Source: a bacterium (lineage in GTDB: Bacteria; JAHJDO01). Taken from it: DNA of 34,568 nucleotides. The notes below the pieces were generated by a model. It worked only from the letters and a program-made list of their open reading frames with translations. It did no database searches and had not been told where the DNA came from. Positions 32 through 18,019 of the stretch are shown here, piece after piece. Numbering within the stretch: position 1 is the stretch's first letter; each line of letters begins with the position of its first letter. The stretch spans positions 1 to 34,568 of the forward strand of contig JBDRTG010000004.1 of the NCBI GenBank assembly GCA_043824255.1, given 5' to 3'. The position numbers were made by a program, and so were the translations under genes.

Positions 32-1264
32 TTGGAAATGAATATAAAAGGAAAAGAAACAGAAGGACTTGTTCTGGAATTTGACGTGGCAAGAATGTTT
101 CTTGCAGAAGAAGAAGAAGAAGAAGAAGAAGAAGCCAGTATTGTCGTATCACTTAAAGATGTTACCGAGCGCAAGAAAGCAGAGAAGGTATTGCAGGAGA
201 ACAAAGAATTTAATAGAGCCCTGTTTGAGTACAATCCTATTGAGACTATAATCGTGGATTTGGAAGGGAAAATAATAGACTTCAACCTTGCAAAAAAGGT
301 CTCAGGTGATAGATTGCCTAATATTGGAGATGTAATGTATAGTAATTATGCAGCTCATCATGAGATTGATATGCATGCTGAATTGATGAAATGCATCAAA
401 GCAGGGAATGGGAGAGAGTTTCATGAGCAAAAATACAAGAACAGGTTTCTATCTATAACAATAGCTCCCTTTCCTAAAGGAGCTATTATAACATCTCTAG
501 ACATCACCGGGCACAAGGAGTGGACAGAAAAAGAGAAAAAAAGAGCTATAGAGTCGCAAAAGGCTTATGAACAACTGCAAGCCAGTAAGGACGAGTTGAT
601 TCGCTCCGAGAGACTCGCCTTTACCGGCCGCATAGCCGCAAATATTGCGCATGAGATAAGAAATCCCCTGACCAATGTAGCTATGGCAGTCCAGCAGCTT
701 AGGAAAGCCATTAAGACAGAAGACCCCATGTCTAAAAATATGGACATCATTAAAAGAAACACAGAAAGGATTAACTACTTAATTACTGAACTCCTAAACT
801 GTGCCCGCCCGCCAAAACTTAATATACAGCCATGTAATATTCATAAGGTATTAGAAGATATTTTAGAGTCCAACAAGACTAAGATTACTTCAAAAAGGAT
901 AAAGATAATTAAAAGGTTTACCTCTGACACATTCATAATAAAGATTGATAAAGAACAAATGCAGCGTGCCTTCTTAAACATAATCATTAATGCTATTGAA
1001 GCGATGCCCAAGAGAGGCAAATTGACCATTATTACAGAGTTTAAAGGAAACCTTTTTGAGGTGAAGATTCAAGATACAGGTAAAGGCATTCCTGAAGAAG
1101 ATATTATCAGGATATTTGACCCTTTCTTTAGCTCCAAGTCCGGGGGTGTAGGCTTAGGGTTAACTATATGTTATGGGATTATTGTCAGCCATGGCGGTAC
1201 TATAGAGGTAGAAAGCAAGCCGAAAGAAGGGTCTATCTTTATGGTCTCTTTGCCAGTAAGCTAG
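32..1264 (+). CDS. Cytoplasmic PAS/PAC sensor histidine kinase (NtrB-like HisKA + HATPase_c)
   Basis: H-box IAHEIRNPL, N-box NIIINAIEAM, G1 DTGKG, F-box FDPFF, G2 GVGLGL; PAC-type ends DVTERK and DITGHK; no transmembrane stretch; SD AGGAGG at 20-25 and in-frame stops at 11-16, so the gene starts in this window (TTG 32 or ATG 38). Confidence 0.92.
   Translation: MEMNIKGKETEGLVLEFDVARMFLAEEEEEEEEEASIVVSLKDVTERKKAEKVLQENKEFNRALFEYNPIETIIVDLEGKIIDFNLAKKVSGDRLPNIGDVMYSNYAAHHEIDMHAELMKCIKAGNGREFHEQKYKNRFLSITIAPFPKGAIITSLDITGHKEWTEKEKKRAIESQKAYEQLQASKDELIRSERLAFTGRIAANIAHEIRNPLTNVAMAVQQLRKAIKTEDPMSKNMDIIKRNTERINYLITELLNCARPPKLNIQPCNIHKVLEDILESNKTKITSKRIKIIKRFTSDTFIIKIDKEQMQRAFLNIIINAIEAMPKRGKLTIITEFKGNLFEVKIQDTGKGIPEEDIIRIFDPFFSSKSGGVGLGLTICYGIIVSHGGTIEVESKPKEGSIFMVSLPVS
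107..133 (+). repeat. (GAA)9 trinucleotide microsatellite encoding a poly-Glu tract in the kinase
   Basis: Nine perfect GAA units read directly from the sequence; protein AEEEEEEEEEA. Confidence 0.95.
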
Positions 1265-1303
1265 AACAGATCGTATACGGAATACGAACGACGGAGTGTA
1301 ATA

Positions 1304-1903
1304 GTGGAAATAAAATATGATATTAGAAGAGGCGCAGATATATATCGGGCAATTTATGGAGCTCGATTACAGAAATGGATTCTTGCAGGTAAGATAAAGC
1401 GAGGAGAAGTAATTGTCTGGCGAAGCGGTCTTTCAGGCTGGCGCAAACCTGAAGAACTTGAGGAACTGGCGGTATTTTTTAAACAGTGGGAAAAAGAACA
1501 ATTAAGAGAAAAAAAGAGGTTAGAAGAGCAAATCTTCCCGAAGAAGAAGATAAAGAATATTTTAATAATAGACGATGAGAAGGATTTATGTTCGCTTCTG
1601 TCTGATGCCTTAATCCAGAGAAACTACAATGTATCGATTGCAAACACAAAAAGAGAAGCTATGGCTTGTCTTAAAAAGGAATCACCCGATTTAGTTCTGT
1701 TAGACCTAAAACTACCTGATGGTGATGGAATAAAAATCCTTCCTAAAATCAAAAGAGTAAATCCAGAGACAGTAGTAATTGTAATTTCTGCCTATGGAAG
1801 CGAAGAAGCCAGACAAATGGCAAAAAAGGGAGGAGCTTTTACCTTTATAAACAAGCCATTTACTGAAGAAGATATATTGAAGGCTATAAAAGTACTCTCA
1901 TAA
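1304..1903 (+). CDS. Response regulator: N-terminal GYF_2 (DUF4339)-like domain plus C-terminal receiver domain
   Basis: Receiver motifs ILIIDDE, LLDLKLPDGDG, ISAY, NKPF; N-terminal LQKWILAGKIKRGEVIVWRSGLSGWRKPEELEEL resembles the GYF_2 pattern (G.I...TLVWR.G...W.P..E..EL). Confidence 0.85.
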   Translation: MEIKYDIRRGADIYRAIYGARLQKWILAGKIKRGEVIVWRSGLSGWRKPEELEELAVFFKQWEKEQLREKKRLEEQIFPKKKIKNILIIDDEKDLCSLLSDALIQRNYNVSIANTKREAMACLKKESPDLVLLDLKLPDGDGIKILPKIKRVNPETVVIVISAYGSEEARQMAKKGGAFTFINKPFTEEDILKAIKVLS

Positions 1904-1904
1904 G

Positions 1905-1955
1905 AAATGTAAAAATAAAAAATAAAAATGCAAAACGACAAATCAAAATTTAAAA
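1905..1955. repeat. Left arm of an imperfect inverted repeat (heptamer-periodic, A-rich) flanking the four-helix-bundle gene
   Basis: Ungapped match to the reverse complement of 2300-2350, 37/51 by manual count; overlaps the start of the 1928 gene. Confidence 0.7.
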
Positions 1956-2299
1956 AGGAATTCAAAAGAAGATTATATAACTTCGCCCTGAAACTTATAG
2001 AATTCATAGATAAATTACCAAAAGACAATGTTTCAAGAAGAATCGGAGATCAATTGTTGCGAAGTGGGACAAGCATTTTGGGGAATTATATTGAGGGGCA
2101 GTCAGCCAGCAGTAAAAAAGATTTTACTAACTATTTTAATATTTCGTTGAAATCTACAAATGAGAGCAAATTGTGGGTTTCACTGCTTCGGGATACTAAG
2201 CGTGTTAGTCCTGAGGAAGTTACTTGGTTTTTGCAGGAGTTGAAGGAAATTGGCAATATTTTTGGCACGAGCATTTTAACTCTTAAAAACAGGAAATGA
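1928..2299 (+). CDS. Four-helix-bundle protein (23S rRNA intervening-sequence protein / bAvd-like family)
   Basis: 123 aa with family motifs QLLRSGTSILGNYIEG, SKKDF..Y..ISLKS.NES..W..LL. Confidence 0.9.
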   Translation: MQNDKSKFKKEFKRRLYNFALKLIEFIDKLPKDNVSRRIGDQLLRSGTSILGNYIEGQSASSKKDFTNYFNISLKSTNESKLWVSLLRDTKRVSPEEVTWFLQELKEIGNIFGTSILTLKNRK

Positions 2300-3755: not shown

Positions 3756-3839
3756 TGTAGAACAAACTCTACACTTCCCAAACGAACGCTGAAAGCTGTT
3801 GTAAGATAAATTCTACACAGACGTAGAAACAACTCTACA
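3756..3839. promoter_or_regulatory. Three 18-bp palindromes TGTAGA-N6-TCTACA; probable upstream activator sequences for the adjacent NtrC-family activator
   Basis: 3756-3773 TGTAGAACAAACTCTACA; 3800-3817 TGTAAGATAAATTCTACA; 3822-3839 CGTAGAAACAACTCTACA; starts 44 and 22 bp apart; about 105-190 bp upstream of the -24 box. Confidence 0.82.
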
Positions 3840-3943: not shown

Positions 3944-3960
3944 TTGGCACGGAAGTTGCT
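3944..3960 (+). promoter_or_regulatory. sigma54 (-24/-12) promoter of the gvpA operon
   Basis: TTGGCACGGAAGTTGCT matches the consensus YTGGCACG-N4-TTGCW; GG 3946-3947 and GC 3958-3959 are separated by exactly 10 nt. Confidence 0.92.
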
Positions 3961-4242: not shown

Positions 4243-4252
4243 GGATAGTTAA

Positions 4253-4335
4253 GAGAAAGGATTCTTGCCGAGCCACCCTTATGAACACAGTCTGTGCTCA
4301 GAAAAGCATGGCTCGCCAAGAGATTCCTTCTTCTC
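4253..4335 (+). terminator. Large stem-loop after gvpA (partial terminator or mRNA-stabilising structure)
   Basis: Arms GAGAAAGGATTCTTG-C-CGAGCCA (4253-4275) and TGGCTCG-C-CAAGAGATTCCTTCTTCTC (4309-4335), inner hairpin at 4282-4300; no classical U-tract. Confidence 0.6.
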
Positions 4336-4357
4336 CCTAAGGTAAAAGAAAGAGGAA

Positions 4358-5077
4358 ATGAAGATGGCAGAAGCGCTAGATTTAAAGGATGTAGTTGAGG
4401 ATGTTGTTTCTTCCTATGAGAAGAGAATCCAGAGCATTGGTTCTGTTTTTGATGTTGATACTGCTCGTCTAATTTTTGGCGACTCTCAAGGGTCTCTCAT
4501 TCACACCAGAGAGGAAAGAGGGAAAATTAATACTCAGCTTCGGGATACCCTTGCCAGAAAAGAGCATCTCAGGAAAAAAGACTTTGACAATATGATGCAG
4601 AGCACCTTATCAGTTCAGGATCAACGGGAAAAAGAAGTAAGAGGTTCGTTAAATACTTATCTTAATGAACAAAAAGAGATGGCTCAGGTTTTAAGGGAAA
4701 ACTTAGAGAAGTTTAGAAATTCTCTTGCCATAGGTGAGGTCGGAAGAGTCAAGGAATTCCAAACAATAATTAAAGAGGTCCTTTCAAAGCAGGAAAAGAG
4801 AAAAGAAGAGATTACTTCTAAACTAAAGGATTTTCAGAAAGAACAACAGGAAATGGCAAAAAGACTCAAGGAACTTCTAGCAAAGGGAAGGGAGCTTAGG
4901 ATAAAGGATTTCAAATCAATGCTTAAGGAATTCAATGTTCAAAGAGATGAACGATTGGTGCTTCAAAAGAGCAGGAAACAAGAAGTGACCAAAATGCTCA
5001 GTGGCTTTAGAGAAGAAAGACAAAGAGCAGTAAAAGAGGACACAAGTAAGAAACGGAAAATTAAAAAGGAGGAATAA
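4358..5077 (+). CDS. Charged alpha-helical/coiled-coil protein, weakly GvpC-like
   Basis: Lies between gvpA and the GvpC-like gene; recurring units EVRGSLNTYLNEQKEMA / EITSKLKDFQKEQQEMA / EVTKMLSGFREERQRA. Confidence 0.6.
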   Translation: MKMAEALDLKDVVEDVVSSYEKRIQSIGSVFDVDTARLIFGDSQGSLIHTREERGKINTQLRDTLARKEHLRKKDFDNMMQSTLSVQDQREKEVRGSLNTYLNEQKEMAQVLRENLEKFRNSLAIGEVGRVKEFQTIIKEVLSKQEKRKEEITSKLKDFQKEQQEMAKRLKELLAKGRELRIKDFKSMLKEFNVQRDERLVLQKSRKQEVTKMLSGFREERQRAVKEDTSKKRKIKKEE

Positions 5078-5079
5078 AG

Positions 5080-5982
5080 ATGGGAATAGCAGAGAGTATG
5101 AGAAGTATGGTAGATGATATCGTTGTATCTCATGATTCACGGTCAAAGGCAATTGGCAGTATAGTGTCTGATACACAAGACATTCTGGGTAATGCCAGAA
5201 AAGCTGTGAAAGACTTTGCTGCCGATAGAAAAAAGATGAGTGCAGAACAGGCCAGGAACCTGGCTGATTTTGCAAAGGATTTGTCAAAGAGCACAGGAGA
5301 TATGCTTAACATATTCCATACTAATCGTAAACAGATGAGTGCGGAACAGGCAAAGAGCTTAGCAGATTTTGTTAAGGGTATATCAAAGAACGTAGAAAAA
5401 CTGCGACAGAATGCAAAAGATATGATTAAGGGGTTCCATAAAGACCGTAAACAGACGGGTGCAGAACAAGCAAGGAACTTAGCAGATTTTGCTGGCAGTC
5501 TGGCCAGGGATGTAGATTCGATGTTGATTGGTTTTGGGAAGGACCGCAGCAAGATGTCAAAGGAACTCAAGGACAAACTTGGCAAAGCAATAAAAGATAT
5601 TAAAGTATCTGTTGCTGAGACAATCAAAGGTGCCAGAAAACTCGTAGACGAATATAGCTCTGATATGGCAAAGGCAAAAGATGCATGGGAGAGCATGTCT
5701 TCCACTTCGGCTAAGGCTAAAAAAAGTGGTGTTGCGCCCAAGATTGAAGTCAAAGAAAAGGTAGCTACAGTTAAAGAAGCAGCGAAAGCAAAACCAAAAG
5801 CTAAGCCTAAAACTGTAGAAGGTCAGATATTAGCGTTGCTCGAGGAGCATCCGCGGGGAAGAACCATGGTCCAGATGGGAGAGGAGATGGGTGTCCACTT
5901 TGCCAGCCTCCTTCATCCAATGAAAAAACTGCTTGAAAGCGGTAAAGTCAATAAAATTGATAAAAAGTACCGTTTAGTCTAA
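5080..5982 (+). CDS. gvpC: GvpC-like repeat protein with a Lys/Pro linker and C-terminal winged helix-turn-helix
   Basis: Repeats F..DRK.MSAEQARNLADF with periods 33, 40, 33 aa; DNA repeats start at 5235, 5334, 5454; linker AKAKPKAKPK; tail QILALLEEHPRGRTMVQMGEEMGV...MKKLLESGKVNK. Confidence 0.75.
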   Translation: MGIAESMRSMVDDIVVSHDSRSKAIGSIVSDTQDILGNARKAVKDFAADRKKMSAEQARNLADFAKDLSKSTGDMLNIFHTNRKQMSAEQAKSLADFVKGISKNVEKLRQNAKDMIKGFHKDRKQTGAEQARNLADFAGSLARDVDSMLIGFGKDRSKMSKELKDKLGKAIKDIKVSVAETIKGARKLVDEYSSDMAKAKDAWESMSSTSAKAKKSGVAPKIEVKEKVATVKEAAKAKPKAKPKTVEGQILALLEEHPRGRTMVQMGEEMGVHFASLLHPMKKLLESGKVNKIDKKYRLV

Positions 5983-5994
5983 GAGATCGTAACA

Positions 5995-6339: not shown

Positions 6340-7254
6340 ATGATTGATGAGATGACTACAGTAATTGAACCAAATCCTTTGCCGGATTTTGTGGAAACAA
6401 AGTATATAAAGGATATTACTGGCAGAGCCCTTTCCTATATTAAGGCCGGCTTTCCAGTTCATTTTCGAGGACCTTCAGGTACAGGAAAAACTACTCTTGC
6501 TATGCATGTGGCCAGTAAACTAGGCAGACCGGTAGTGATGATTCACGGGGATGAGGAGTTTACAACCTCTGATTTAGTTGGTGGAGAACATGGCTACAGA
6601 TTTAAAAAGGTTGTAGACCGCTTTATCTCAACTGTTTTAAAGACAGAAGAAGATATGGTAAAGCGCTGGGTGGATAACCGTCTAACAGTTGCCTGCAAAT
6701 ACGGGTTTAGTTTAATATATGATGAGTTTACGCGTTCCAGGCCAGAAGCGAATAATGTTCTTCTTTCCATTTTGCAGGAGAAAATGATGGATTTGCCAAT
6801 TGGAAGAGGAGGGGAAGAACCGTATTTAAAGGTTGATCCCGATTTTACCGCTATTTTCACCTCAAACCCTGAGGAATACGCAGGAGTTCACAGGAGTCAG
6901 GATGCGCTCAGGGACAGAATGATAACCATGGATTTAGACCACTTTGATTACGATACAGAAATAGGTATTACCAGAGCAAAATCCAAACTCTCTAAAAAAG
7001 ATTCCATGAGAATAGTTGATATTGTAAGAGGCTTGAGAGAATCTGGAAAGTGTGAATTTGCGCCTACTGTTCGTGGCTGTATCATGATTGCCAAAACTCT
7101 TAAGGTTCTAAAAATTTCTTCTTCTAATACAAATGGCCATTTTAGCCAGATGTGTCAGGACATACTTGCTTCTGAGACGAGCAGAGTCGGCTCGAAGACG
7201 AATCAGGACAGGGTAAAGGAGATAGTTAAGGGGTTAATTAAGAAATATAGTTAG
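6340..7254 (+). CDS. gvpN: Gas vesicle AAA+ ATPase GvpN
   Basis: PVHFRGPSGTGKTTLAMH, WVDNRLTVAC, LIYDEFTRSRPEANNVLLSIL, FTSNPEEYAGVH..QDALRDRM. Confidence 0.96.
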   Translation: MIDEMTTVIEPNPLPDFVETKYIKDITGRALSYIKAGFPVHFRGPSGTGKTTLAMHVASKLGRPVVMIHGDEEFTTSDLVGGEHGYRFKKVVDRFISTVLKTEEDMVKRWVDNRLTVACKYGFSLIYDEFTRSRPEANNVLLSILQEKMMDLPIGRGGEEPYLKVDPDFTAIFTSNPEEYAGVHRSQDALRDRMITMDLDHFDYDTEIGITRAKSKLSKKDSMRIVDIVRGLRESGKCEFAPTVRGCIMIAKTLKVLKISSSNTNGHFSQMCQDILASETSRVGSKTNQDRVKEIVKGLIKKYS

Positions 7255-7285: not shown

Positions 7286-7588
7286 ATGATGACACAACGC
7301 ACTTTAGGTGTTAAGGCTGTAAAAAGTTTACGTTCTGTAGGCGCCCGGTCTATTCCAAAGAGCCAAAGGTCAAGCTCTCTAGAGTTATATACGCTTGGAA
7401 CAGTAAAGGATAGATTGGAGAAAGAAGCATTTGCGTTGGATAAGAGAAGAGACACTGTTAAAAGACAATTTGATGATGTAAAAAAGAGAATCAAAAAATT
7501 GCAAAAAGAAGTATATCAAGAACAAGAGGTAAAAACTCATAAGAATGTGCCTGCTAAGCCTCTGAAAACTATGGCTATAAACTATTAA
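7286..7588 (+). CDS. GvpV-like coiled-coil protein
   Basis: Follows gvpN; SIPKSQRSSSLELYTLGTVKDRLEKE followed by a coiled coil resembles GvpV as I recall it; SD GAGGAGG upstream. Confidence 0.55.
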   Translation: MMTQRTLGVKAVKSLRSVGARSIPKSQRSSSLELYTLGTVKDRLEKEAFALDKRRDTVKRQFDDVKKRIKKLQKEVYQEQEVKTHKNVPAKPLKTMAINY

Positions 7589-7626: not shown

Positions 7627-8157
7627 ATGGCTAAAGAAAAGAAAAAAGAAGAGGGTTTAGATATTGATTTTGGGATGGAGAAACTCGGTTTAGGGGGACT
7701 ATTTAAGGGAATTGAGAAATTAGTTAATCTGGCAGCAGATTTAAAAGAAGCCGGAGGGGAGATTAAAAAAGAAGGCGAAATAGACCTGAGCCATCTTAAG
7801 AAAGGGATGAAGGGAGTATTTGGCTTTTCCGTAAAAAGCGCAGTGGGAGGAAAACCAACAGTTGAGACGTTCGGCCACAAAATTAAGAAGACCCCTGAAG
7901 GTCCCACGGTTGAAGAAGAGAGAGAGCCTATCGTAGATGTATTTGATGAAAAAGAAGAGATCCGAGTCTATGCTGAGATGCCAGGGGTAAATGACGAATC
8001 TATATCGGTCGATTTAAAGGGCGACATACTAGAAATAACAGCTGTAAGTAAGGATAGAAAATACCGCAAGGAAATTTTACTTCCTGCTAAAGTTGAACCT
8101 AAAACTTTAGAGAGGAGTTTTAAAAACGGTATCCTAGAGATTAAGATGAAGAAGTGA
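7627..8157 (+). CDS. Hsp20/alpha-crystallin small heat-shock protein (GvpH-like)
   Basis: REPIVDVFDEKEEIRVYAEMPGV...YRKEILLP...SFKNGILEIKMKK alpha-crystallin domain. Confidence 0.9.
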   Translation: MAKEKKKEEGLDIDFGMEKLGLGGLFKGIEKLVNLAADLKEAGGEIKKEGEIDLSHLKKGMKGVFGFSVKSAVGGKPTVETFGHKIKKTPEGPTVEEEREPIVDVFDEKEEIRVYAEMPGVNDESISVDLKGDILEITAVSKDRKYRKEILLPAKVEPKTLERSFKNGILEIKMKK

Positions 8158-9100: not shown

Positions 9101-11274
9101 TGGCAAAAAAGAACTCAACCCTTACACTTAAAGTAAAAGAAGCTCTGCCAAAGGATGCAGGAAGGGCTATCGCCAGGATTGACCCGGAAGATATGAAAAC
9201 GCTTGGAATAGAAGTAGGCGAGGTTGTAGAGATTGACGGTAAAAGAAAAACTCCTGTCAAAGCAATGCCGTCTTACGCAGAAGATAGAGGGAAAAAGACT
9301 ATTCAAATGGATGGAATATCCAGAGAGAATGCGCAGATTGGACTGGATGAAAAGGTAAATATCAGCAAGATTTCCTATAAGGCTGCTAACAAAATCACAC
9401 TCTCTCCTCTGACTGCATCGAGCCTGCTTCAAAGAGATAAAGATACCAGATATATCGGCTCGCTTATGGAGGGGCTTCCTGTAACCAGCGGCGATAGGAT
9501 TAGAGCTACGCTTTTTGGCTCAAGATCCTGCGATTTTAAGGTATTGGATGCTATTCCTGCGGGTGTAGTTTTAATAAACCAGACTACTTCAATAAAGATG
9601 GAGACAAAGGGGGTAGAAAAAGAGAGGTCAGCCAAAGTTTCATATGAAGATATTGGCGGGCTTGATAAGCCAATCCAAAGAATTAGGGAGATGATAGAGC
9701 TTCCTCTGAAATATCCTCAAGTATTTGAAAGATTGGGAATTGATCCGCCGAAAGGCGTTTTTCTTCATGGTCCTCCGGGTTGTGGGAAAACTTTAATCGC
9801 TCGGGCCGTGGCTAATGAAACAGATGCTTATTTTACCAGCATAAGCGGACCGGAAATTATGGGGAAGTTTTATGGGGAGAGCGAAGCCCGCCTCCGTTCC
9901 ATATTTGAAGATGCTCAAGCACATGCACCTGCTATCATATTTTTGGATGAGATTGAATCTATTGCTCCAAAAAGAGAAGATATGGGCGCTGAAAAACAGG
10001 TTGAGCGAAGAGTGGTAGCTCAGCTTCTGGCTCTGATGGATGGATTAGAATCAAGGGGACACGTTGTTGTTATAGCTGCAACCAATTTACCTAATACAGT
10101 TGATCCGGCTTTGAGACGGCCAGGCCGTTTTGACAGAGAATTATCTATCCCTATTCCGGATAAAAATGGGCGATTAGAAATTTTACAGATACATACAAGA
10201 GGAATGCCTCTGGCAGAAGATGTGACTTTAGAGAAGTTAGCTGAGATTACTCATGGATTTGTGGGCGCTGATTTAGAATCATTAGCAAGAGAAGCAGCAA
10301 TGTCAGCGTTAAGAAAGATTTTGCCTAAGATAGATTTTGAGTTAGCGGAGATACCTTATGAGACTCTTTTAGAATTGCAGGTTACTATGGATAATTTTTT
10401 GGAGGCATTGAAAGAAATAGAGCCTTCTGCTATCCGCGAGGTGTTTGTTGAAGTTCCTGATGTAAAGTGGAGTGAGATTGGTGGATTAGATGAAATAAAG
10501 AAGACTTTAATTGAAGCAGTAGAATGGCCTCTTAAATACAGCAGATTATTTGAGCACGTCAAAACAGAGCCGCCTACAGGCATTTTGCTCTCCGGTTCTC
10601 CTGGCACGGGAAAGACTTTGGTAGCCAAAGCATTAGCTACTGAGAGCGGGGTTAATTTTATTTCTGTTAAAGGCCCTGAGATTATGAGTAAGTATGTGGG
10701 TGAGTCAGAACGCGCTGTCCGTGAGATATTTAAAAAGGCAAGAATGGCAGCTCCCTGTATTTTGTTCCTGGATGAAATAGACAGTCTGGTTCCTAAACGC
10801 GGAAGCGCTGGAGGGGATTCACAGGTAACCGAGAGAGTAATCAGCCAATTTCTTACTGAACTTGGCGGGATAGAGAGATTAAAGGGCGTAGTAGTGATTG
10901 GTGCGACCAATAGATTAGATATGATAGACACCGCAATATCAAGGGCTGGAAGGTTTGATATCCATTTAAACTTTCCATTACCTGACAAAAAGACAAGACT
11001 CAGAATTTTTGAAATTCATGCTAAAAGCAAACCATTAGATAAAGATGTAAATTTAGAAAAATTAGCAGATCAAACAGAAGAATATTCCGGGGCAGATATT
11101 GAAGCTATTTGCCGTCGCGCGTCTATGCTTGCTATAAGAGGATATATAAAAAATCAAAAATCCCCGAAGGACAAGCCTACGGGGCAGGCAAAAAGCAAAG
11201 ATCAAAAATTAGAACTCAAGATATCAAAGAGCAATTTTGAAGAAGCTATTAAACTGGTTGAGAGTCAAAGGTGA
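9100..11274 (+). CDS. CDC48/VCP/p97-family AAA+ ATPase (N domain + two AAA modules)
   Basis: N domain [20 protein letters not shown]1 [31 protein letters not shown]2 [21 protein letters not shown]. Confidence 0.95.
11151..11210. repeat. Heptamer array (AAATCAA-like) interrupted by a 27-bp GC-rich palindromic insert, inside cdc48
   Basis: Removing 11162-11188 (CCCCGAAGGACAAGCCTACGGGGCAGG) leaves AAATCAA AAATCAA AAAGCAA AGATCAA AAATT; the insert folds as CCCCG-A-AGG/CCT-A-CGGGG. Confidence 0.7.
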
Positions 11275-11277
11275 TTA

Positions 11278-11748
11278 ATGCCAAGAAGTGTACAGCTAAA
11301 GACGATGAGAGATGTATGGAAAAGACATGGTAGAGTTCCAAGTAGTGTAGGATTAGGCGTGGGAGCACCTTCTAAATTAACAAAGCATTCTTCAACAGAA
11401 ATTAGTACAAGCTATAAAGGTAAGGTTTATGAGAAACCAAGAGAGTGGCAGTATATAACCAAACCTTTCTTTAAAAGGATAAAGGAACCGATTGTAGATG
11501 TATTTAAGGAAGCAGAAGAGATACAAATTATTATAGATTTGGGCAATTTCACCAAGGGCGAACTTGATTTTGAATTAAAGCAAGGAAAGTATTGTATCTT
11601 CGGTAAACATGGAGATTGCGAATTCCATGAAGAGATCCCTTTACCTAAGGGCGTAGATACAAAAAAGATAAAAGAAATATTTCGAAATAATATCTTAGAA
11701 CTTACTATGCCTAAGAAGACTATTAAAAAACGTGGAGAAAGAAAATGA
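11278..11748 (+). CDS. Second Hsp20/GvpH-like protein
   Basis: KEPIVDVFKEAEEIQIIIDL...FHEEIPLP...FRNNILELTMPK alpha-crystallin-like C-terminal half. Confidence 0.78.
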   Translation: MPRSVQLKTMRDVWKRHGRVPSSVGLGVGAPSKLTKHSSTEISTSYKGKVYEKPREWQYITKPFFKRIKEPIVDVFKEAEEIQIIIDLGNFTKGELDFELKQGKYCIFGKHGDCEFHEEIPLPKGVDTKKIKEIFRNNILELTMPKKTIKKRGERK

Positions 11749-12368
11749 AAAACAAACTACAAATCTTAGTAATTGATGACGAGAAAGATATTTGCGATCT
11801 TTTTAGGGAAATTTTAACCCCGGAAGGTTATATAGTACTTACAGCCCTGGATGGAATGAGAGGTCTTGAGATAGCCGAGGAAAAGAAGCCAGACATTGTG
11901 TTATTAGATTTAAAGATGCCTAAGATGGATGGGATTGAGGTGCTTCGCCGTATTAAGAAGATAGATAAAAATATCATAGTTATCATAATCACTGCTTATG
12001 GGACAATGGATACTGCTCGACTAGCTATGAAGTTAGGTGCTTATGATTATATTACCAAACCATTCGATATTAATTATGTAAAGGCAGTCATCAAAGATGG
12101 GGTAAAATCAACCCTTCAGGCCTTTGCAGATCAGATGAAGGAGAGGAAGGTCTTGAAGGATGTCAGGTCTAAACAGGCTACGCTGGCTAAGGTAAGGCAT
12201 TGCAGAGAAACTCGAGCCTGTTTGTGGGAGGTAGCTATAAGGGCCTTTGTATTAGGCGACGATAGTTTTATGGTAGGATGGATGGAGGATCCTAAAGCGA
12301 GTAAAGAAGAAAAATTAGGATTAATACAAATTGCTCAGATTCTCAAAGCAGATATGGCAAAAAAGTAA
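11745..12368 (+). CDS. Response regulator receiver protein with an uncharacterised C-terminal extension
   Basis: ILVIDDE, LLDLKMPKMDG, ITAY, TKPF; ~85-aa tail with no recognisable output domain. Confidence 0.88.
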   Translation: MKNKLQILVIDDEKDICDLFREILTPEGYIVLTALDGMRGLEIAEEKKPDIVLLDLKMPKMDGIEVLRRIKKIDKNIIVIIITAYGTMDTARLAMKLGAYDYITKPFDINYVKAVIKDGVKSTLQAFADQMKERKVLKDVRSKQATLAKVRHCRETRACLWEVAIRAFVLGDDSFMVGWMEDPKASKEEKLGLIQIAQILKADMAKK

Positions 12369-12419: not shown

Positions 12420-12554
12420 ATGGCAGGGATTATTGAGAAAATTAAAAACTTTTTTAGCAGCATGTGTATATGCAAAGTTAAGAAGGAAAAAGAAGAACCT
12501 AAACTGCAACAGGAAGAGCCTAAGGTAGAGGAAAAACCTAAAGAACAAAAATAA
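12420..12554 (+). CDS. Small 44-aa protein absent from the ORF track (MAGIIEKIKNFFSSMCICKVKKEKEEPKLQQEEPKVEEKPKEQK)
   Basis: Translated by hand: ATG 12420, TAA 12552-12554; SD-like AAGGGGGGTGG at 12404-12414; fills the gap before the next gvp gene. Confidence 0.65.
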   Translation: MAGIIEKIKNFFSSMCICKVKKEKEEPKLQQEEPKVEEKPKEQK

Positions 12555-12569: not shown

Positions 12570-13574
12570 ATGGCTGAAATTGGAAAATATATTTATGGAA
12601 TTATAAGTGCTAATACGGACTTCCGCCTTTTTGTCTCGGAGGATAGCATACATGCGATTCCTTCTCAGGATATCTCGGCTGTAGTAGGAGACTCCGAGAT
12701 AATCGATTACACTTGTATATCTAAAGGTGATGTGGCGAAGATGCTGGTCAGGCATCAAAAGGTTATTGAAAGAATTATGAGTTCAGGGATTACAATTATT
12801 CCTATGAAATTAGGCACATTCGCTGTTTCGGAAATTGAGGTCAAGTATGTTTTGGATAGAGGCTATAATCTCATTAAGGAGACTATGGAGAAGACGGGCA
12901 ACAAAATAGAGATTGATATAGTCGCCACATGGAGTGATTTTCCTTCAATTCTTAAAGAGGTTGGGGAAGAGAGAGAAATTAAAGAATTAAAAGAAAGGCT
13001 TTTAGCTAGTCCAAAAGAGATAACTATAACTGACCAGATGAAAGTAGGGCTTATGGTTAAGAAAGCATTGGATATAAAAAAAGGGAAATATGCTGAAAAG
13101 ATAAAGAATACACTGGAAACTCTAAGCCAGGATCTAAAGTTGCATGAACTCATGGACGATAATATGGTTGCTAATATAGCCTTTTTGATAAATAAAACCC
13201 GGCAAATAGAATTTGATAAAAAGATAGAAGACCTAAACACTGAATTTCACGATGAGTTAAATTTTAGATGTGTAGGTCCGCTTCCGCCTTATAGTTTCTA
13301 TACGCTTGAGATAAAAAAGATGCAATTTGGCGAGATTGATTGGGCAAAAAAGAAGTTGGGTTTAAATGATTTTGCAGATAAAGATGAAATTAAGAAAGCC
13401 TATCGAAGAGTAGCCGCTTCTTTCCATCCTGATAGAAATCCGGACATACCAGCTAAAATTTTTGATGATGTAAACAAAGCCAATAAGATACTTATTGACT
13501 ATTGCAAAGCTCGTGAACAAGCAGGCGAGGAAGAATTTAAAAAGAACGCAGTATTGATCAAAGTGAGGGAGTAG
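12570..13574 (+). CDS. GvpL/GvpF-family protein fused to a C-terminal DnaJ J-domain
   Basis: KYIYGII, TIIPMKLGT, ANIAFLI, VGPLPPYSF (GvpF/L), then LGL...DEIKKAYRRVAASFHPDRNP (HPD motif at 13425-13433). Confidence 0.88.
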   Translation: MAEIGKYIYGIISANTDFRLFVSEDSIHAIPSQDISAVVGDSEIIDYTCISKGDVAKMLVRHQKVIERIMSSGITIIPMKLGTFAVSEIEVKYVLDRGYNLIKETMEKTGNKIEIDIVATWSDFPSILKEVGEEREIKELKERLLASPKEITITDQMKVGLMVKKALDIKKGKYAEKIKNTLETLSQDLKLHELMDDNMVANIAFLINKTRQIEFDKKIEDLNTEFHDELNFRCVGPLPPYSFYTLEIKKMQFGEIDWAKKKLGLNDFADKDEIKKAYRRVAASFHPDRNPDIPAKIFDDVNKANKILIDYCKAREQAGEEEFKKNAVLIKVRE

Positions 13575-13581: not shown

Positions 13582-14352
13582 ATGGAGAAAGAAGGGAAAT
13601 ATATCTATTGTGTTGTTGCAACATCACAGGAGAGGAATTTTGGGCCAATAGGAATAGGCGGCAGGTGCGATGAGGTTTTAACTGTTGGCTATAATGACCT
13701 GAGCATGGTTGTAAGCAGTCATCCAATGACTAAATTTACTGTTAATCGCGAGAATATGCTGGCTCACGAGAAGATAATTGAAGAAGTGATGAAGGAATTT
13801 GATAGCGTACTTCCAGTCAGGTTTGGCACTATTGCCTCTAATGCTGATGAGATAAGAAATCTTTTAGATAAAAGATATAGAGAATTTAAGAACGCATTAA
13901 GGGATATGGACCATAAAATAGAATTAGGCGTTAAAGGAATATGGAAGAATATGGAAATAATCTTTAAAGAGATTGTGCAGGAGAATAAAGAGATTAAGAA
14001 GGCAAAAGTGAAAATTCAAAACGGCAAAGGGAAAAAGAATATACAATCTAAGAGGGAGGTTGGTAAAGAGGTTTTTGAAGCTCTGCAAAAGAAAAAAGAG
14101 AAAGAGGCAGAGAAGATAGTAGATGCCTTAAGAAGAACATCCTTTGACCATAAACTTAATAAGACTATTACAGATGAGATGTTTATGAATGCAGCCTTTT
14201 TGGTAGATAAAGGGAGAGAGAAAGAATTTGATAATATAATGGATGATTTAAGTGAAGAATATAAGGATAGAGTAAAGTTTATGTATGTAGGTCCTTTACC
14301 TGTTTTTAATTTTGTGAGCATTGCCATTTATCCTGAGGAATGGGAAAAGTGA
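13582..14352 (+). CDS. gvpF: GvpL/GvpF-family gas vesicle protein
   Basis: KYIYCVV, AHEKIIEEVM, VLPVRFGT, NAAFLVDK, GPLPVFNFV. Confidence 0.88.
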   Translation: MEKEGKYIYCVVATSQERNFGPIGIGGRCDEVLTVGYNDLSMVVSSHPMTKFTVNRENMLAHEKIIEEVMKEFDSVLPVRFGTIASNADEIRNLLDKRYREFKNALRDMDHKIELGVKGIWKNMEIIFKEIVQENKEIKKAKVKIQNGKGKKNIQSKREVGKEVFEALQKKKEKEAEKIVDALRRTSFDHKLNKTITDEMFMNAAFLVDKGREKEFDNIMDDLSEEYKDRVKFMYVGPLPVFNFVSIAIYPEEWEK

Positions 14353-15104
14353 AAGAAGGTAAGTACATATATTGTGTAATAAAAATTAACGAACCAAAAA
14401 CTTTCGGTCCACTGGGAGTTGGCGGAAGAGGGGACGAACTGCATACTATTTGCTTTAATGATATAGCAGTTGTAGTGAGCAATTCTCCAATAATAAAATA
14501 CCCGGTATCAAGGGAGAATACACTTGCTCATGAAAAGGCAATTGAGGAAGTAATGAAAAAGCATGTAGTTTTGCCGGTAAGATTTTGTACAATTGCTGAA
14601 GACGAAAAGAAGGTAAAGAAGATTTTAGAAAGAGAGCATGATAAATTCAAAGATCTGTTGGACAAAATTAATAATAAAAAAGAGCTTGGGTTAAAAGCAA
14701 TATTTAAAGAGGATGTTATTTATAAAGATATCTTGGAAAAACATGAAGACATAAGAAAGTTAAAGGAAGGGCTGGCTTCTAAACCCCCTGAAGCGACTCA
14801 TTACGAACGTATGGAAATAGGGAAAATGGTGGAAACTGCTCTGCAAAAAGAGAAAGAGATTTGTGAAAAGGATATTATTAATACTCTTTCGCCTTTGGCA
14901 GTAGAGCATAAGACGAATAATACCTATGGCGAACGCATGATTATTAATGCGGCTTTTTTAGTGGAGAAAAGCAAAGAAACAGAATTTGACCGGAATGTTC
15001 AGGAACTGGACGGAAAATATGGGAATAAAATAAAATTTAAGTATGTAGGAACCATACCGCCATTTAATTTTGTCAATTTAGTAATTAATATAGGAGAGTA
15101 TTAA
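14340..15104 (+). CDS. gvpF: GvpL/GvpF-family gas vesicle protein (alternative GTG start at 14349)
   Basis: KYIYCVI, AHEKAIEEVM, VLPVRFCT, NAAFLVEK, GTIPPFNFV; directly upstream of gvpG. Confidence 0.88.
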   Translation: MGKVKEGKYIYCVIKINEPKTFGPLGVGGRGDELHTICFNDIAVVVSNSPIIKYPVSRENTLAHEKAIEEVMKKHVVLPVRFCTIAEDEKKVKKILEREHDKFKDLLDKINNKKELGLKAIFKEDVIYKDILEKHEDIRKLKEGLASKPPEATHYERMEIGKMVETALQKEKEICEKDIINTLSPLAVEHKTNNTYGERMIINAAFLVEKSKETEFDRNVQELDGKYGNKIKFKYVGTIPPFNFVNLVINIGEY

Positions 15105-15343
15105 TGTTTTTAATTGATGATATATTCCTTGCGCCATTGAAAGGGGTGGTTTGGCTTGGCAAGAAGATTAATGAGGTTATAGAGAAGGAAATCTCTGATG
15201 AAGGGCGGATAAAAGAGAAACTCATGGAATTACAAATGCGGTTTGAGTTGGATGAAATAAACGATGAAGAATATAAGAAGCAGGAAGAAGAACTTTTAGC
15301 GCGATTAGACGCTATTAGAAAAGCAAAAGAAGAGGAGGTGTGA
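15104..15343 (+). CDS. gvpG: Gas vesicle protein GvpG
   Basis: MFLIDDIFLAPLKGVVWL...LMELQMRFELDEINDEEYKKQEEELLARL. Confidence 0.92.
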   Translation: MFLIDDIFLAPLKGVVWLGKKINEVIEKEISDEGRIKEKLMELQMRFELDEINDEEYKKQEEELLARLDAIRKAKEEEV

Positions 15344-15345
15344 AG

Positions 15346-15600
15346 ATGGCTAATATGGAAGAAGCTAAGAAAGCAGTTGCTGAGTTTTTGAGAAAGACCC
15401 TTAATGTCAAAGATGTAAAGGTTATTAAGGTTGGAAAGAGTGAAAAGGGCTGGGAGACAGAAACAGAAGTATATGAGGAGAGTTCATTTATAAAGGCTCT
15501 TGGACTTCCAACAAGAGTAAAGGACCGGAATATCTATGAGGTTAAATTGGATGATAAATTAGAAGTCCAATCCTACGAATGCAAGAGTAAAGAAGAATAA
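15346..15600 (+). CDS. gvpO: Gas vesicle protein GvpO/GvpR family
   Basis: GWETETEVYEE...IYEVKLDDKLEVQSYE pattern; SD GGAGGTG at 15334-15340 favours ATG 15346. Confidence 0.75.
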   Translation: MANMEEAKKAVAEFLRKTLNVKDVKVIKVGKSEKGWETETEVYEESSFIKALGLPTRVKDRNIYEVKLDDKLEVQSYECKSKEE

Positions 15601-15621: not shown

Positions 15622-16437
15622 ATGAAAGGATTATATCTCTATTGTATTAGAGAGAAAACCGAAGGTGTCGTAGCTTTTTCTGCCAAAGGTATTGACGGGA
15701 AGGGAAAGGTTTTTACTCTTCCTTATCGCGAATTAGAGGCAGTGGTAAGCAATATCTCTTTAGAAGAATTTGGGTCGAGTAAGATTCAGAAAAAGGCACA
15801 GGAAGATCCAATCTGGATTAAAGAGAAAGCGCTTGCTCATGAAGAAGTTATAGAAAAATCTATGAATAATAATAAAATTTTAGGTCTAATTCCGATGAGA
15901 TTCGGTATCATCTTTAAGAATAAAGCGAGATTAGAAGAAATCTTAGATAAAGACTATTCCAAAATTAAAGATTCTTTAGAAAAAATTAGAGGGAAACAGG
16001 AGTGGGGTGTGAAGGTATATCTGAAGGACAGGAAGAAATTCGAGCAAATGATAAAGGAGAAAAATAAAACAATAAAAGGAAAAGAGAAAGAAATAGCAGC
16101 TTTAGATGAGGGTATGGCCTTTTTTATGGAAGAAGAATTAAAAGAGGTTATTTCTAGAGAAGTAGAAAAAAACTTAGCGAACATTGCGGAAGTCTTTTTT
16201 AAGAGTTTGAAGAAGCACGCAGTAGAGTCGGTTGAAAATAAAATTTTGGGGAAAGAATTAACAGGAAGGCAGGAGCTTATGATCTTAAATACAGCCTATT
16301 TAGTTGCTAAGGAGAAAATCAGCGATTTTAAGAAGGAGGCTGATAATTTAAATCAAGGAATGCAAACAAAGGGATTCTATCTTGAATCCACTGGTCCCTG
16401 GCCTGCTTATAATTTTACCAAGTTAGAGATTAAATAA
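15622..16437 (+). CDS. gvpL: GvpL/GvpF-family gas vesicle protein (GvpL-like)
   Basis: GLYLYCI, AHEEVIE, LIPMRFGIIF, EWGVKVY, LNTAYLV, TGPWPAYNF. Confidence 0.88.
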   Translation: MKGLYLYCIREKTEGVVAFSAKGIDGKGKVFTLPYRELEAVVSNISLEEFGSSKIQKKAQEDPIWIKEKALAHEEVIEKSMNNNKILGLIPMRFGIIFKNKARLEEILDKDYSKIKDSLEKIRGKQEWGVKVYLKDRKKFEQMIKEKNKTIKGKEKEIAALDEGMAFFMEEELKEVISREVEKNLANIAEVFFKSLKKHAVESVENKILGKELTGRQELMILNTAYLVAKEKISDFKKEADNLNQGMQTKGFYLESTGPWPAYNFTKLEIK

Positions 16438-16444
16438 TAAGATT

Positions 16445-16999
16445 ATGGCTACTCTATTAAAGAACACGGCTATTGAAAAAAGCAATGTAACTCTGGTAGA
16501 TGTCCTGGATAAAGTTTTAGAGAAAGGGGCAGTTATAAACGGAGATATTGTCATAAGGGTAGCGGATGTTGATCTTGTGTTTTTAGGTTTAAGACTTATT
16601 CTCACCTCAGTTTCTAAGGCGGAGGAGCTTTCTGGCAAGAATTTCAGTGACCGAGAGAAGGAAGCTACCCCGGAAGATATAGCGTATATGCAAAAATTGC
16701 AAAGAGAGATAAGAAGGGCCGAAGAAAATATTCCTAAACTAATTGATGTTAGTGATCCAAAAAAGACAGAGCAGGGCTTAGCCAAGTTGGTTTTGACCCT
16801 GGTTGAATTGATAAGAAGATTGATGGAGAAGGAGGCTTTTCGAAGAGTAAAGAGAGGCACGCTTTCCCCTACAGAGGTTCAAAAATTGGGATTGAGCCTT
16901 AAAGCAGTAAAGAAAAAGATAAAAGAGATTCAGGCAATCTTTGGTATTGAAGATGAAGAATTAAATTTGGATTTGGGTCCTTTAGGAAATTTAATGTGA
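16445..16999 (+). CDS. gvpK: Fusion of a GvpS/GvpJ-type (GvpA family) domain with GvpK
   Basis: N-terminal LVDVLDKVLEKGAVINGDIVIRVADVDLVFLGLRLILTSV; C-terminal GLAKLVLTLVELIRRLMEKEAFRRV...LNLDLGPLGNLM. Confidence 0.88.
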   Translation: MATLLKNTAIEKSNVTLVDVLDKVLEKGAVINGDIVIRVADVDLVFLGLRLILTSVSKAEELSGKNFSDREKEATPEDIAYMQKLQREIRRAEENIPKLIDVSDPKKTEQGLAKLVLTLVELIRRLMEKEAFRRVKRGTLSPTEVQKLGLSLKAVKKKIKEIQAIFGIEDEELNLDLGPLGNLM

Positions 17000-17017
17000 A
17001 AAAAGGAGGGATAAACG

Positions 17018-17323
17018 ATGGCTGACTCACGAGTAGGAAGTGCACTTAATACTACCAATTTAGCTGACATCTTAGAGAGGGTTCTGGATAAAGGAATTGT
17101 TATTGCCGGGGATATTAAGATTCAAATTGCCGATATCGACCTTCTCACCATCAAGATAAGACTTATGATTGCTTCAGTGGATAAGGCTAAGGAGATGGGG
17201 ATAAATTGGTGGGAGCAAGATTCTTATTTATCTACAAAAGCAAAGGATGCAGAAATCGAAAAGGAGAAAGCAGCATTGCAGAAGAGATTAGAGCAGTTGG
17301 AAAAAAAGATCAAAGTCAAATAG
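17018..17323 (+). CDS. gvpJ: Gas vesicle protein GvpJ
   Basis: LADILERVLDKGIVIAGDI....ADIDLLTIKIRLMIASVDKAKEMGINWW; SD AGGAGG upstream. Confidence 0.93.
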   Translation: MADSRVGSALNTTNLADILERVLDKGIVIAGDIKIQIADIDLLTIKIRLMIASVDKAKEMGINWWEQDSYLSTKAKDAEIEKEKAALQKRLEQLEKKIKVK

Positions 17324-17341
17324 CAGAATCAGCATTTTATT

Positions 17342-18019
17342 ATGAAAACGTTAATTTATGTTCCAATCATACATATGAGTGCAGACTTAGGTAGTATTGC
17401 CAAGCAGGTAAACAAAAGAGGTATTGCAGATTTTGGAGAGGAATTCTGGAAGAAACACAGAGAGACTGTGTCTGGCTTTTGGGATTCGATTGTAAAATAT
17501 TTTGCCAATTTAGAGGTTAAAGATTTTAAAATATACCAGGATGGCTTAGTAGCTGATGGAGAAGTTGGCCAAAAAATAGTGGAGGAAGGCGTTAAATCTG
17601 GTAGTAAAAATTATTCAGTTATCAATAATTTATTGAAGAAAGGTGCCGTTTTGGTTCAAACGGAGGATTTCCCTCTGGTTAAAAAAGAAAGAGATCGTAT
17701 TGTTGAAATTACCCAGGCTAAGACGATGACAATGAAGTTAATAGCTTATTTAAGGTATAGATTGACTAAGGATTGGTTACTAAAGAAAAGAGATAATTAT
17801 ATAACTAAAAGGATAGATGAAACCTTAGAACATGGAGAAAAAGGTATCCTCTTTTTAGGTGCATATCACAACATAATACCTGAACTCTCCAAAAAAATTC
17901 AGATAACTGAGGTGAAAGAAGCAAAGAAGGTAAAGGATTATCAAAGATTGCTTCTCTCATTTAAAAAGAATAAAGAAGAATTTGAAGAGTTAGCAAGATA
18001 TTTAATCTCACCAATATAA
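17342..18019 (+). CDS. Hypothetical protein closing the gvp operon (possible TraB/Tiki-like fold)
   Basis: 225-aa ORF 18 bp after gvpJ; motifs PIIH, YQDG, RDNYI, LFLGAYH; the fold assignment is inference. Confidence 0.7.
   Translation: MKTLIYVPIIHMSADLGSIAKQVNKRGIADFGEEFWKKHRETVSGFWDSIVKYFANLEVKDFKIYQDGLVADGEVGQKIVEEGVKSGSKNYSVINNLLKKGAVLVQTEDFPLVKKERDRIVEITQAKTMTMKLIAYLRYRLTKDWLLKKRDNYITKRIDETLEHGEKGILFLGAYHNIIPELSKKIQITEVKEAKKVKDYQRLLLSFKKNKEEFEELARYLISPI

What the first reader, a model, noticed from the sequence alone, without database searches (positions are those of the whole stretch)
32..18019. Complete two-component/sigma54-controlled gas vesicle island carrying its own proteostasis toolkit
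Seen: gvpA, C-like x2, N, V-like, F/L x4, G, O, S/J-K and J, all co-oriented with a kinase, three receiver proteins and six chaperone-type genes. Established: gas vesicles are best studied in cyanobacteria, haloarchaea, Bacillus megaterium and Serratia 39006, and the Serratia cluster has NtrC-type/two-component regulators, so sigma54 control alone has precedent. Inference: the flanking core genes (lnt, PTS-Ntr plus HprK, PGI/PMI, ahcY) suggest an AT-rich diderm unlike those models, possibly an uncultured lineage. The domain fusions and chaperone set point to a distinct gas vesicle assembly type.
Basis: partly seen in the sequence, partly recalled or inferred. Interest (0 to 1): 0.82.

Follow-up and report, generated by a model that had tools for sequence, protein, structure and literature searches.

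The report
Mobile gas-vesicle island with chaperone arm
This uncultured bacterium carries an inserted gene island for gas-filled flotation organelles, of the same broad type as the Serratia model and shared by many unrelated bacteria, with extra chaperone genes that likely keep the sticky shell protein from clumping rather than building the shell in a new way.

Summary
The genes are real, intact and co-oriented. The island is an insertion (empty site in congeners), and its regulatory arm continues off the contig, so the window is not the whole island. A sigma-54 box and three activator-type palindromes precede gvpA; the box tracks the activator gene in related loci (11 of 19 versus 1 of 26). 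The Hsp20-Get3-like-Cdc48-GvpF/J-domain block recurs in about 15 phyla (Cdc48 in 47 of 50 loci). It is less new than claimed. Published Serratia deletion primers read as Cdc48 (gvpZ) and as the last unknown gene's family (gvpY); gvpH, gvpY and gvpZ are dispensable there. ArsA plus Hsp20 were noted in 2010. Cultured Methylocella, Methylosinus and Octadecabacter carry the Cdc48 or the J-fusion. Not found in my paper searches: Cdc48 identity of GvpZ, the GvpF-J fusion, the zinc-finger and second helical protein. An RNA stem after gvpA is conserved in 60 of 60 loci and has no Rfam match. The Serratia gvpZ deletion appears to keep the D2 motor. The scan found this cluster type before on other DNA. 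Verdict: new variant of a known kind.

The parts
32..1264 (+). Cytoplasmic histidine kinase (PAS-like, HisKA, HATPase_c); GvrB-like by role
   Evidence: homologues at 61-67% before the same regulators in L010, L011, L029, L037
1304..1903 (+). Receiver protein with a weak GYF_2-like N-terminal domain; GvrC-like by role
   Evidence: same architecture in 6 of 80 loci
1928..2299 (+). Four-helix-bundle (23S rRNA IVP/Avd-like) protein, likely a passenger
   Evidence: present in G004, not in G007 or L001-L080
2373..3752 (+). Sigma-54 activator (receiver, AAA+, Fis HTH); GvrA-like
   Evidence: phospho-Asp motif and GAFTGA present
3756..3839 (.). Three palindromes TGTAGA-N6-TCTACA (3756, 3800, 3822), predicted activator binding sites
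   Evidence: only matches in the genome (pattern taken from these sites); kept in G004, G007; close after the activator gene in 5 more loci
3945..3960 (+). Sigma-54 -24/-12 promoter box upstream of gvpA
   Evidence: host rpoN on contig C32
4027..4242 (+). gvpA, main shell protein (likely start ATG 4036)
   Evidence: 88-99% identical in 59 loci
4258..4327 (+). Conserved RNA stem after gvpA with two fixed pyrimidine-pyrimidine mismatches; no Rfam match
   Evidence: z -3.1; 60 of 60 loci, compensatory changes
4358..5077 (+). C1: unnamed all-helical protein with a 51/58-residue internal repeat, possibly a second outer-surface protein
   Evidence: 53 of 53 loci; no profile hit in Pseudomonadota or cultured loci
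5080..5982 (+). C2: GvpC-like protein with 33/40-residue repeats and a weak C-terminal winged helix
5995..6318 (+). Free-standing zinc-finger protein, six CxxCxGxG motifs
   Evidence: 38 of 53 loci
6340..7254 (+). gvpN AAA+ ATPase
   Evidence: TIGR02640 340.8 bits against cut-off 266.8
7286..7588 (+). GvpV-like coiled-coil protein
   Evidence: 49 of 50 loci; family profile hits the gene after gvpN in cultured clusters; pairwise BLAST finds nothing
7627..8157 (+). GvpH-like small heat-shock protein of archaeal Hsp20 type
   Evidence: 136.2 bits, just under the NF041800 cut-off 140; 48 of 50 loci
8165..9100 (+). Single-domain Get3/ArsA-type ATPase with C-terminal CxxC
   Evidence: 43 of 50 loci
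9100..11274 (+). Cdc48/VAT-type N-D1-D2 AAA+ ATPase, the GvpZ of Serratia
   Evidence: 47 of 50 loci
11278..12368 (+). Second Hsp20 plus receiver protein, inserted into the 3' end of cdc48 in this lineage
   Evidence: absent in G004 and G007; the family-type cdc48 tail lies stranded after 12370
12420..12554 (+). Conserved 44-aa ORF with N-terminal amphipathic helix
   Evidence: (G004, G007, G015 and at least 8 of L001-L080)
12570..13574 (+). GvpF/L fused to a J-domain with HPD
   Evidence: HPD 44 of 44; also in Octadecabacter arcticus 238
13582..15104 (+). Two further GvpF/L proteins (13582-14352, 14340-15104)
15104..15600 (+). gvpG (15104-15343) and gvpO/R (15340-15600)
15622..16437 (+). Fourth GvpF/L, GvpW-like by position
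16445..16999 (+). GvpS/A2-GvpK fusion
   Evidence: fused in 10, split in 18 of 28 loci
17018..17323 (+). gvpJ/A3
17342..18019 (+). GvpY-family protein; predicted ChaN/HopBA1-like alpha/beta fold, possible hydrolase
18188..18261 (+). tRNA-Ala(GGC), host gene at the right edge; the island lies 5' of it

Best explanation
This is a horizontally inserted, Serratia-type gas-vesicle island whose gvp operon is likely switched on by its own kinase and sigma-54 activator, and whose chaperone genes likely form an optional quality-control arm for the aggregation-prone shell proteins. Shown: intact gvp set, promoter box and palindromes, insertion into an empty site, intact catalytic motifs, conservation across phyla. 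Inferred: the kinases phosphorylate the activator, which binds the palindromes and opens the sigma-54 promoter; the RNA stem after gvpA biases output towards GvpA; GvpF/L, G, K, J, S and GvpN build the vesicle as in the models; GvpF-J hands GvpA-family monomers to host DnaK; Hsp20 and the Get3-like dimer hold exposed hydrophobic segments; Cdc48 (GvpZ) unfolds stuck or aggregated subunits for reuse or for host proteases.
For: Every Serratia-essential class has a counterpart by family or position. Sigma-54 box before gvpA in 11 of 19 related loci with the activator and 1 of 26 without (shuffle expectation 0.02 and 0.04; kin not independent); Serratia gvpA1 has the same control. Empty site in G002, G006, G008 and, with an HD remnant, G003; gvp genes in 3 of 9 genomes of the genus. 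GvpN is 78-87% identical across about 15 phylum labels while TPI is 41-54% in 23 of 24 of those genomes. Hsp20 is directly or one gene upstream of Cdc48 in 58 of 58 loci. Cdc48 pore-loop and arginine-finger motifs 47 of 47, HPD 44 of 44, ArsA P-loop 51 of 51; host DnaK present. GvpA aggregation is toxic and GvpF is proposed as its chaperone (PMC12848028, PMC11445434, passages). Optional role: Serratia gvpH, gvpY, gvpZ deletions keep vesicles natively but lower or remove signal in E. coli; three sampled Pseudomonadota regions of 17-20 kb have no Cdc48. RNA-library contigs identical to the window lie over gvpA, C1, C2, the zinc finger, gvpN, V, Hsp20, ArsA and later gvp genes.
Against: No vesicle, flotation or chaperone activity was observed; all chaperone roles are inferred. 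Near-universal retention of the block in this clade (47 of 50) fits a more essential role than 'optional'. The Serratia gvpZ allele appears to keep the D2 domain (primer rows), so 'dispensable' may be overstated. Eight of 19 activator loci lack a strict sigma-54 box within 1.8 kb, and the palindrome count there (6 of 19) is only modestly above chance (2.8). RNA contigs cannot show level or exclude DNA carry-over. The best-holding runs are labelled groundwater, where a buoyancy benefit is not obvious.
Confidence: 0.66

Rival explanations
1. The chaperone genes are obligatory assembly factors of a distinct, ATP-driven vesicle assembly route.
For: Block kept in 43-48 of 50 loci and translationally coupled inside the operon; HPD invariant; C1 and the zinc finger are confined to this clade in my sample; the Serratia gvpZ allele may retain D2.
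Against: Vesicle-forming models lack these genes or tolerate their deletion; ArsA is missing in 7 and Cdc48 in 3 of 50 loci; GvpA is of the ordinary family.
Confidence: 0.17
2. The Cdc48/Hsp20/GvpY arm mainly takes apart finished or collapsed vesicles so that cells can sink again and recover the protein.
For: Cdc48-type motors are segregases (established knowledge); GvpY sits next to Cdc48 in Methylocella, Methylosinus, four sampled Pseudomonadota and four related loci and has a predicted hydrolase-like fold with invariant His/Asp/Glu; this would explain the lack of an assembly phenotype in Serratia.
Against: The genes share one apparent operon and promoter with gvpA, so they would be made during assembly; the fold match is borderline (Z 8.3); deletions lowered vesicle signal in E. 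coli rather than raising it.
Confidence: 0.12
3. The island makes vesicles or GvpA assemblies for a purpose other than flotation (gas access, larger surface, staying suspended), or is largely silent.
For: Best-holding runs are labelled groundwater; Streptomyces has a cryptic cluster; 6 of 9 genomes of the genus lack it.
Against: All frames intact with a consensus promoter; RNA contigs cover the operon; no flagellin found in this 87% complete genome; gas-vesicle genes are reported in anoxic-lake candidate phyla.
Confidence: 0.05

Closest known systems
Serratia sp. ATCC 39006 gas-vesicle locus (gvpA1 C N V F1 G W A2 K X A3 Y; gvrA gvpH Z F2 F3 gvrB gvrC), PMC4982088
   Same: Sigma-54 NtrC-type activator and -24/-12 box before gvpA; A-C-N-V start; G-W-A2-K-A3-Y end; H-Z-F2-F3 block; primers place GvpZ in the Cdc48 family and GvpY in the family of the last ORF.
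   Different: One apparent operon with regulators in front; extra Get3-like ATPase, zinc finger, C1, GvpO, S-K fusion, RNA stem.
ArsA/Hsp20-linked gvp clusters of Polaribacter irgensii, Pelodictyon luteolum, Geobacter uraniireducens (Castillo and Saier 2010, PMC2963123)
   Same: ArsA homologue, Hsp20, several GvpF/L paralogues and GvpO inside gvp clusters.
   Different: Their vesicle-linked ArsA has two domains (about 600 aa); here it is single-domain, about 311 aa, with Get3-type CxxC. The main text does not mention Cdc48, DnaJ or Get3.
Plasmid gvp clusters of cultured Methylocella tundrae T4 and Methylosinus sp. C49 (RefSeq annotation)
   Same: Sigma-54 regulator, kinase, receiver, gvpA/N/F/G/J/K, Hsp20, GvpY-family gene and CDC48.
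   Different: No ArsA, zinc finger, C1, J-fusion or RNA stem found; different order.
Octadecabacter arcticus 238 plasmid gvp cluster
   Same: Hsp20 and a GvpL/F protein with an HPD J-domain. That the species is gas-vacuolate is recalled.
   Different: No Cdc48, ArsA or sigma-54 regulator in the 29 kb fetched.
Archaeal Hsp20-Cdc48 (VAT) heat-shock pair
   Same: Best solved relative of the Cdc48 is VCP-like ATPase 5g4f; the Hsp20 is archaeal-type; the two are co-regulated in archaea (PMC5852551 passages) and adjacent in 2 of 5 haloarchaeal loci fetched.
   Different: No C-terminal HbYX in 45 tails printed and the only proteasome-family gene in the host is HslV beside HslU, so no 20S proteasome coupling is expected.

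Membership tests
Gas-vesicle gene cluster | GvpA shell protein | tested here: met
   NF006874 130.5 bits over cut-off 100
Gas-vesicle gene cluster | Core accessory set GvpN, F/L, G, K, J, S | tested here: met
Gas-vesicle gene cluster | GvpC outer protein | tested here: inconclusive
   no Pfam/NCBIfam GvpC match; 33/40-residue repeats and position fit C2
Gas-vesicle gene cluster | Forms pressure-collapsible vesicles | not testable with these tools
   needs microscopy or expression
Serratia-type cluster | NtrC-type activator with sigma-54 box before gvpA | tested here: met
Serratia-type cluster | gvpH-gvpZ-gvpF2-gvpF3 block and gvpY | tested here: met
   by order and by primer translation, 6-residue matches only; full Serratia proteins not seen
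Serratia-type cluster | Two separate operons; gvpX | tested here: not met
   genes run in one direction with short gaps and regulators in front; no ORF between the S-K fusion and gvpJ
Cdc48/VAT/p97 type II AAA+ | N-D1-D2 with Walker A/B, aromatic pore loops, arginine fingers | tested here: met
   TIGR01243 930.6 over 802.65
Cdc48/VAT/p97 type II AAA+ | C-terminal HbYX for 20S proteasome docking | tested here: not met
   none in 45 tails printed
Cdc48/VAT/p97 type II AAA+ | Hexamer with unfoldase activity | not testable with these tools
   needs biochemistry
Get3/TRC40 | Single domain, P-loop, switch motifs, C-terminal CxxC | tested here: met
   (CxxC in at least 42 of 51)
Get3/TRC40 | Binds and delivers tail-anchored helices | not testable with these tools
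   needs binding assay
Arsenite-pump ArsA | Two ATPase domains, about 600 aa, in an ars operon | tested here: not met
   311 aa, far below arsenical ArsA cut-offs; no ars genes nearby
J-domain protein | J-domain with HPD | tested here: met
   PF00226 44.1 over 27.8; HPD 44 of 44
ChaN/EreA-like hydrolase fold (GvpY family) | Structural match | tested here: inconclusive
   Foldseek E 0.036; VIA Z 8.3, rmsd 4.6, 162 aligned, at the level common for unrelated folds
tRNA-targeted integrative element | Integrase and duplicated tRNA 3' end | tested here: inconclusive
   island lies 5' of an intact tRNA-Ala; no integrase recognised in the window or in G004/G007 at this site; no dedicated att-site search run

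The most novel reading that the evidence does not exclude
A widespread anaerobe lineage of gas vesicles is built or recycled by a eukaryote-like triage line (Get3-type holdase, J-domain-fused GvpF recruiting DnaK, and a proteasome-free Cdc48 motor), tuned by an unknown RNA element after gvpA; GvpZ's necessity was never truly tested because the published deletion keeps its D2 motor.
Probability: 0.22. Interest if true: 0.75.

Novelty: new variant of a known kind. Interest (0 to 1): 0.43.

Why it matters
How GvpA is kept soluble and inserted is an open question, and its aggregation limits gas vesicles as ultrasound reporters in E. coli. This work names what GvpZ is (Cdc48), points to a GvpF that would recruit Hsp70, and finds cultured carriers (Methylocella, Methylosinus, Octadecabacter), so the question is directly testable. 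It also shows a mobile, recombining island in a one-genus candidate phylum, with RNA-library support from runs labelled groundwater. The organelle, its regulation and most accessory genes already have precedent, which caps the interest.

Tried and rejected
Complex prediction of Hsp20 with Cdc48 N-D1 gave no verdict (median 0.15, mark 0.32) and is not used either way. C1 fold search found nothing at E<=0.001; its Atlas link to Gas_vesicle_C is a weak lead (0.84, 11% of members). The gvpH_3R primer did not place best in Cdc48, so only gvpZ_3F and gvpY_5R are counted. Pairwise BLAST of V against the Methylocella gene found no alignment. Sigma-70 promoters (37 versus 35 expected) were not enriched and no clear terminator marks the island ends. 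RNAalifold on the raw post-gvpA alignment gave no structure because of indels; anchored counting was used instead. No RNA contig was listed over cdc48 or GvpF-J in run X2; holes prove nothing. Naming the host phylum failed: TPI was at most 54% identical to 23 named genomes and the 16S gene had no named library to compare with. CdhC and flagellin were not found in the 87% complete genome. GC content does not mark the island (0.379 versus 0.364). The Serratia protein sequences could not be reached; 10 of 22 supplements of PMC10344784 were not searched and paper figures are not held. Archaeal origin of the Cdc48 is not shown: the tree had only 8 non-gvp rows and its midpoint root fell among gvp rows.

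Full report
Observation. The window is the whole contig G000:C4 of a 2.02 Mb, 38% GC genome. Most gaps are under 40 bases and four gene pairs overlap. Neither C-like protein matches a GvpC model; C2 has 33- and 40-residue self-repeats (scores 81-87, shuffle maximum 41) and C1 a 58/51-residue repeat.

Host and island limits. The host phylum holds 9 genomes, all one genus; an Omp85 match supports a diderm. GvpN, Cdc48 and Gas_vesicle matches occur in 3 of these 9 (the other six are 62-95% complete). In G002, G006 and G008 an HD-domain gene abuts tRNA-Ala and hpf, in G003 an HD remnant does, G001 has one other gene there and G005 another neighbour. In G004 and G007 the island fills this site, with further PAS/MEDS kinases and receivers left of the window; matching genes lie on own contig C30. 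So it is an insertion and the window lacks its left regulatory arm. G007 is mosaic: its GvpN is 89% and C1 39% identical while its flanking island genes are above 90%. The second Hsp20-receiver pair is a local insertion into the cdc48 tail.

Distribution. 256 GvpN relatives were found and the best 80 kept, 78-87% identical, all from uncultured genomes with about 15 phylum labels. TPI in 23 of 24 of those genomes is only 41-54% identical, which points to horizontal spread. Among 50 loci with at least 4.5 kb downstream of gvpN: V 49, Hsp20 48, ArsA 43, Cdc48 47, GvpF-J 47. Among 53 with 3.5 kb upstream: gvpA 53, C1 53, C2 52, zinc finger 38. These loci are the closest relatives, not a random sample. 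The S-K fusion is in 10 of 28 loci. In a blind draw of 400 Pseudomonadota genomes 12 had GvpN; 6 of the 12 had Cdc48 in the cluster (three are near kin), three long regions lacked it and three contigs were short.

Regulation. A sigma-54 box lies at 3945-3960, one of 7 strict matches in the genome, and three palindromes at 3756-3839 are the only matches to a pattern taken from them. G004 and G007 keep all four sites. The box precedes gvpA in 11 of 19 loci with the activator and 1 of 26 without; palindromes occur in 6 of 19 (2.8 expected), five of them just after the activator gene. The host has rpoN. Serratia gvpA1 has the same control. An RNA stem follows gvpA in 60 of 60 loci, with two never-paired positions and compensatory changes (middle stem 0.90 paired; best of 1000 shuffles 0.87, relatedness not controlled) and no Rfam match. 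[quoted passage not shown] In RNA run X2, contigs with no differences cover 4046-4800, 4903-5342, 5434-6551, 7098-8354 and four later pieces; in the flank the listed pieces were at most 371 nt. Contigs cannot give level or exclude DNA.

Chaperone arm. Cdc48 keeps KFYG and RRPGRF in 47 of 47 full-length relatives and has no HbYX tail in 45 printed; its best solved relative is a VCP-like ATPase; the host has HslUV but no other proteasome-family match. In a 35-row tree the 27 gvp-linked and 8 unlinked Cdc48s were split with 100/99 support, but sampling and rooting are too thin to claim one origin. The ArsA is single-domain and closer to Get3-type structures than to the arsenite pump. The J-domain has HPD in 44 of 44 and DnaK is present. 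The last ORF folds confidently (pLDDT 91) with a borderline match to ChaN and HopBA1.

What is known. An earlier scan note suggested that the motor was already named. I tested this. Serratia's order is gvrA-gvpH-gvpZ-gvpF2-gvpF3, and G265 has Hsp20-Cdc48-F-F in that order. The published gvpZ_3F primer translates to VRWEDV, whose best of 16,668 placements among window proteins is the start of Cdc48 D2; gvpY_5R gives LIHFPI, best placed at the start of the last ORF. A third primer was uninformative. These are 6-residue matches, so the mapping is strong but indirect. The same primer design implies that the gvpZ deletion joins the first codons to the start of D2, leaving D2 encoded (inference). 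Deleting gvpH, gvpY or gvpZ keeps vesicles in Serratia but lowers or removes the signal in E. coli. ArsA plus Hsp20 were described in 2010. Cultured Methylocella and Methylosinus plasmids carry regulator, kinase, receiver, Hsp20, GvpY-family and CDC48 genes, and Octadecabacter arcticus 238 has the GvpF-J fusion. C1 and the zinc finger had no profile hit in these 20 outside stretches.

Not found in print. Searches: 'gas vesicle' with cdc48 gave 8 papers, seven on haloarchaea and one degron review by title (only PMC6107691 was opened and is unrelated); with p97 and AAA 2 unrelated titles; gvpZ 21 papers, 20 listed; gvpF with DnaJ 2; broader searches. The library omits most subscription papers, the original 2011 Serratia paper (cited) was not read, and figures and unread supplements may name GvpZ as an ATPase.

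Papers seen: PMC4982088 parts 1-3 of 7, passages and rows of supplements 2 and 3; PMC10344784 passages and a search of 12 of 22 supplements; passages only for PMC2963123, PMC7325909, PMC9324843, PMC8382752, PMC6107691, PMC12848028, PMC10158934, PMC11445434, PMC5852551, PMC9501494 and 10.1101/2023.09.17.558112; all others as search listings. Recalled, from no call: GvpC repeat lengths, the HbYX and Get3 CxxC conventions, the segregase role of Cdc48, the ChaN/EreA family label, and that O. arcticus is gas-vacuolate.

Verdict. Observation confirmed; interpretation partly supported. A mobile Serratia-type gas-vesicle island of a widespread anaerobe subtype, likely sigma-54 controlled, with a likely optional quality-control arm. 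New variant of a known kind; interest 0.43. The scan has reported this cluster type many times on other DNA.

Noticed in passing
L016:9319-10883 and L005, L019, L037, L080, L091: Some related gvp clusters carry a volactin-family actin homologue (Pfam PF25216, E 4e-100) behind a 175-aa gene, between gvpF genes; it could position vesicles.
   Followed up: partly
G000:C30:3821-4228 (-); L087:6202-6963: A 253-aa protein with a sigma-54 DNA-binding-like domain lies in the island's left regulatory arm, separate from the host rpoN.
   Followed up: partly
L090:6010-11089 (G007): G007 has a different tail block including a GvpA-family domain fused to PH/GRAM-like domains and a 402-aa protein ending in an Hsp20-like domain; a second such fusion may lie on G007:C4.
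   Followed up: no
L057:19459-19722 and 15 more loci: An unnamed 87-aa gene sits between gvpK and gvpJ in related loci, the position of Serratia gvpX; absent from the window.
   Followed up: partly
L057:8437-9138 and 11 more loci; L053:6164-7720 and 7 more: A mechanosensitive-channel-like membrane gene lies within, and MEDS-PAS-LuxR regulators upstream of, related clusters that mostly lack the sigma-54 activator.
   Followed up: no
window 18279-26185: Host operon hpf, PTS EIIA, HprK, tpi, HPr, EI, pgi/pmi, metK, ahcY; the HprK ORF has only the C-terminal kinase domain.
   Followed up: no
window 26224-28106: Amidohydrolase and tandem-GNAT genes absent at this site in G004; the GNAT gene is 30% GC.
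   Followed up: no
window 22500-22660: Intergenic stretch absent from G004 and G007, with a high-depth partial contig in RNA run X2; possibly a repeat or small RNA.
   Followed up: no
window 1-175: The kinase start, with a poly-Glu run, has a 90% identical copy on contig C30, a likely cause of the assembly break.
   Followed up: partly
window 34348-34421: tRNA-Thr(GGT) overlapping the end of lnt.
   Followed up: no
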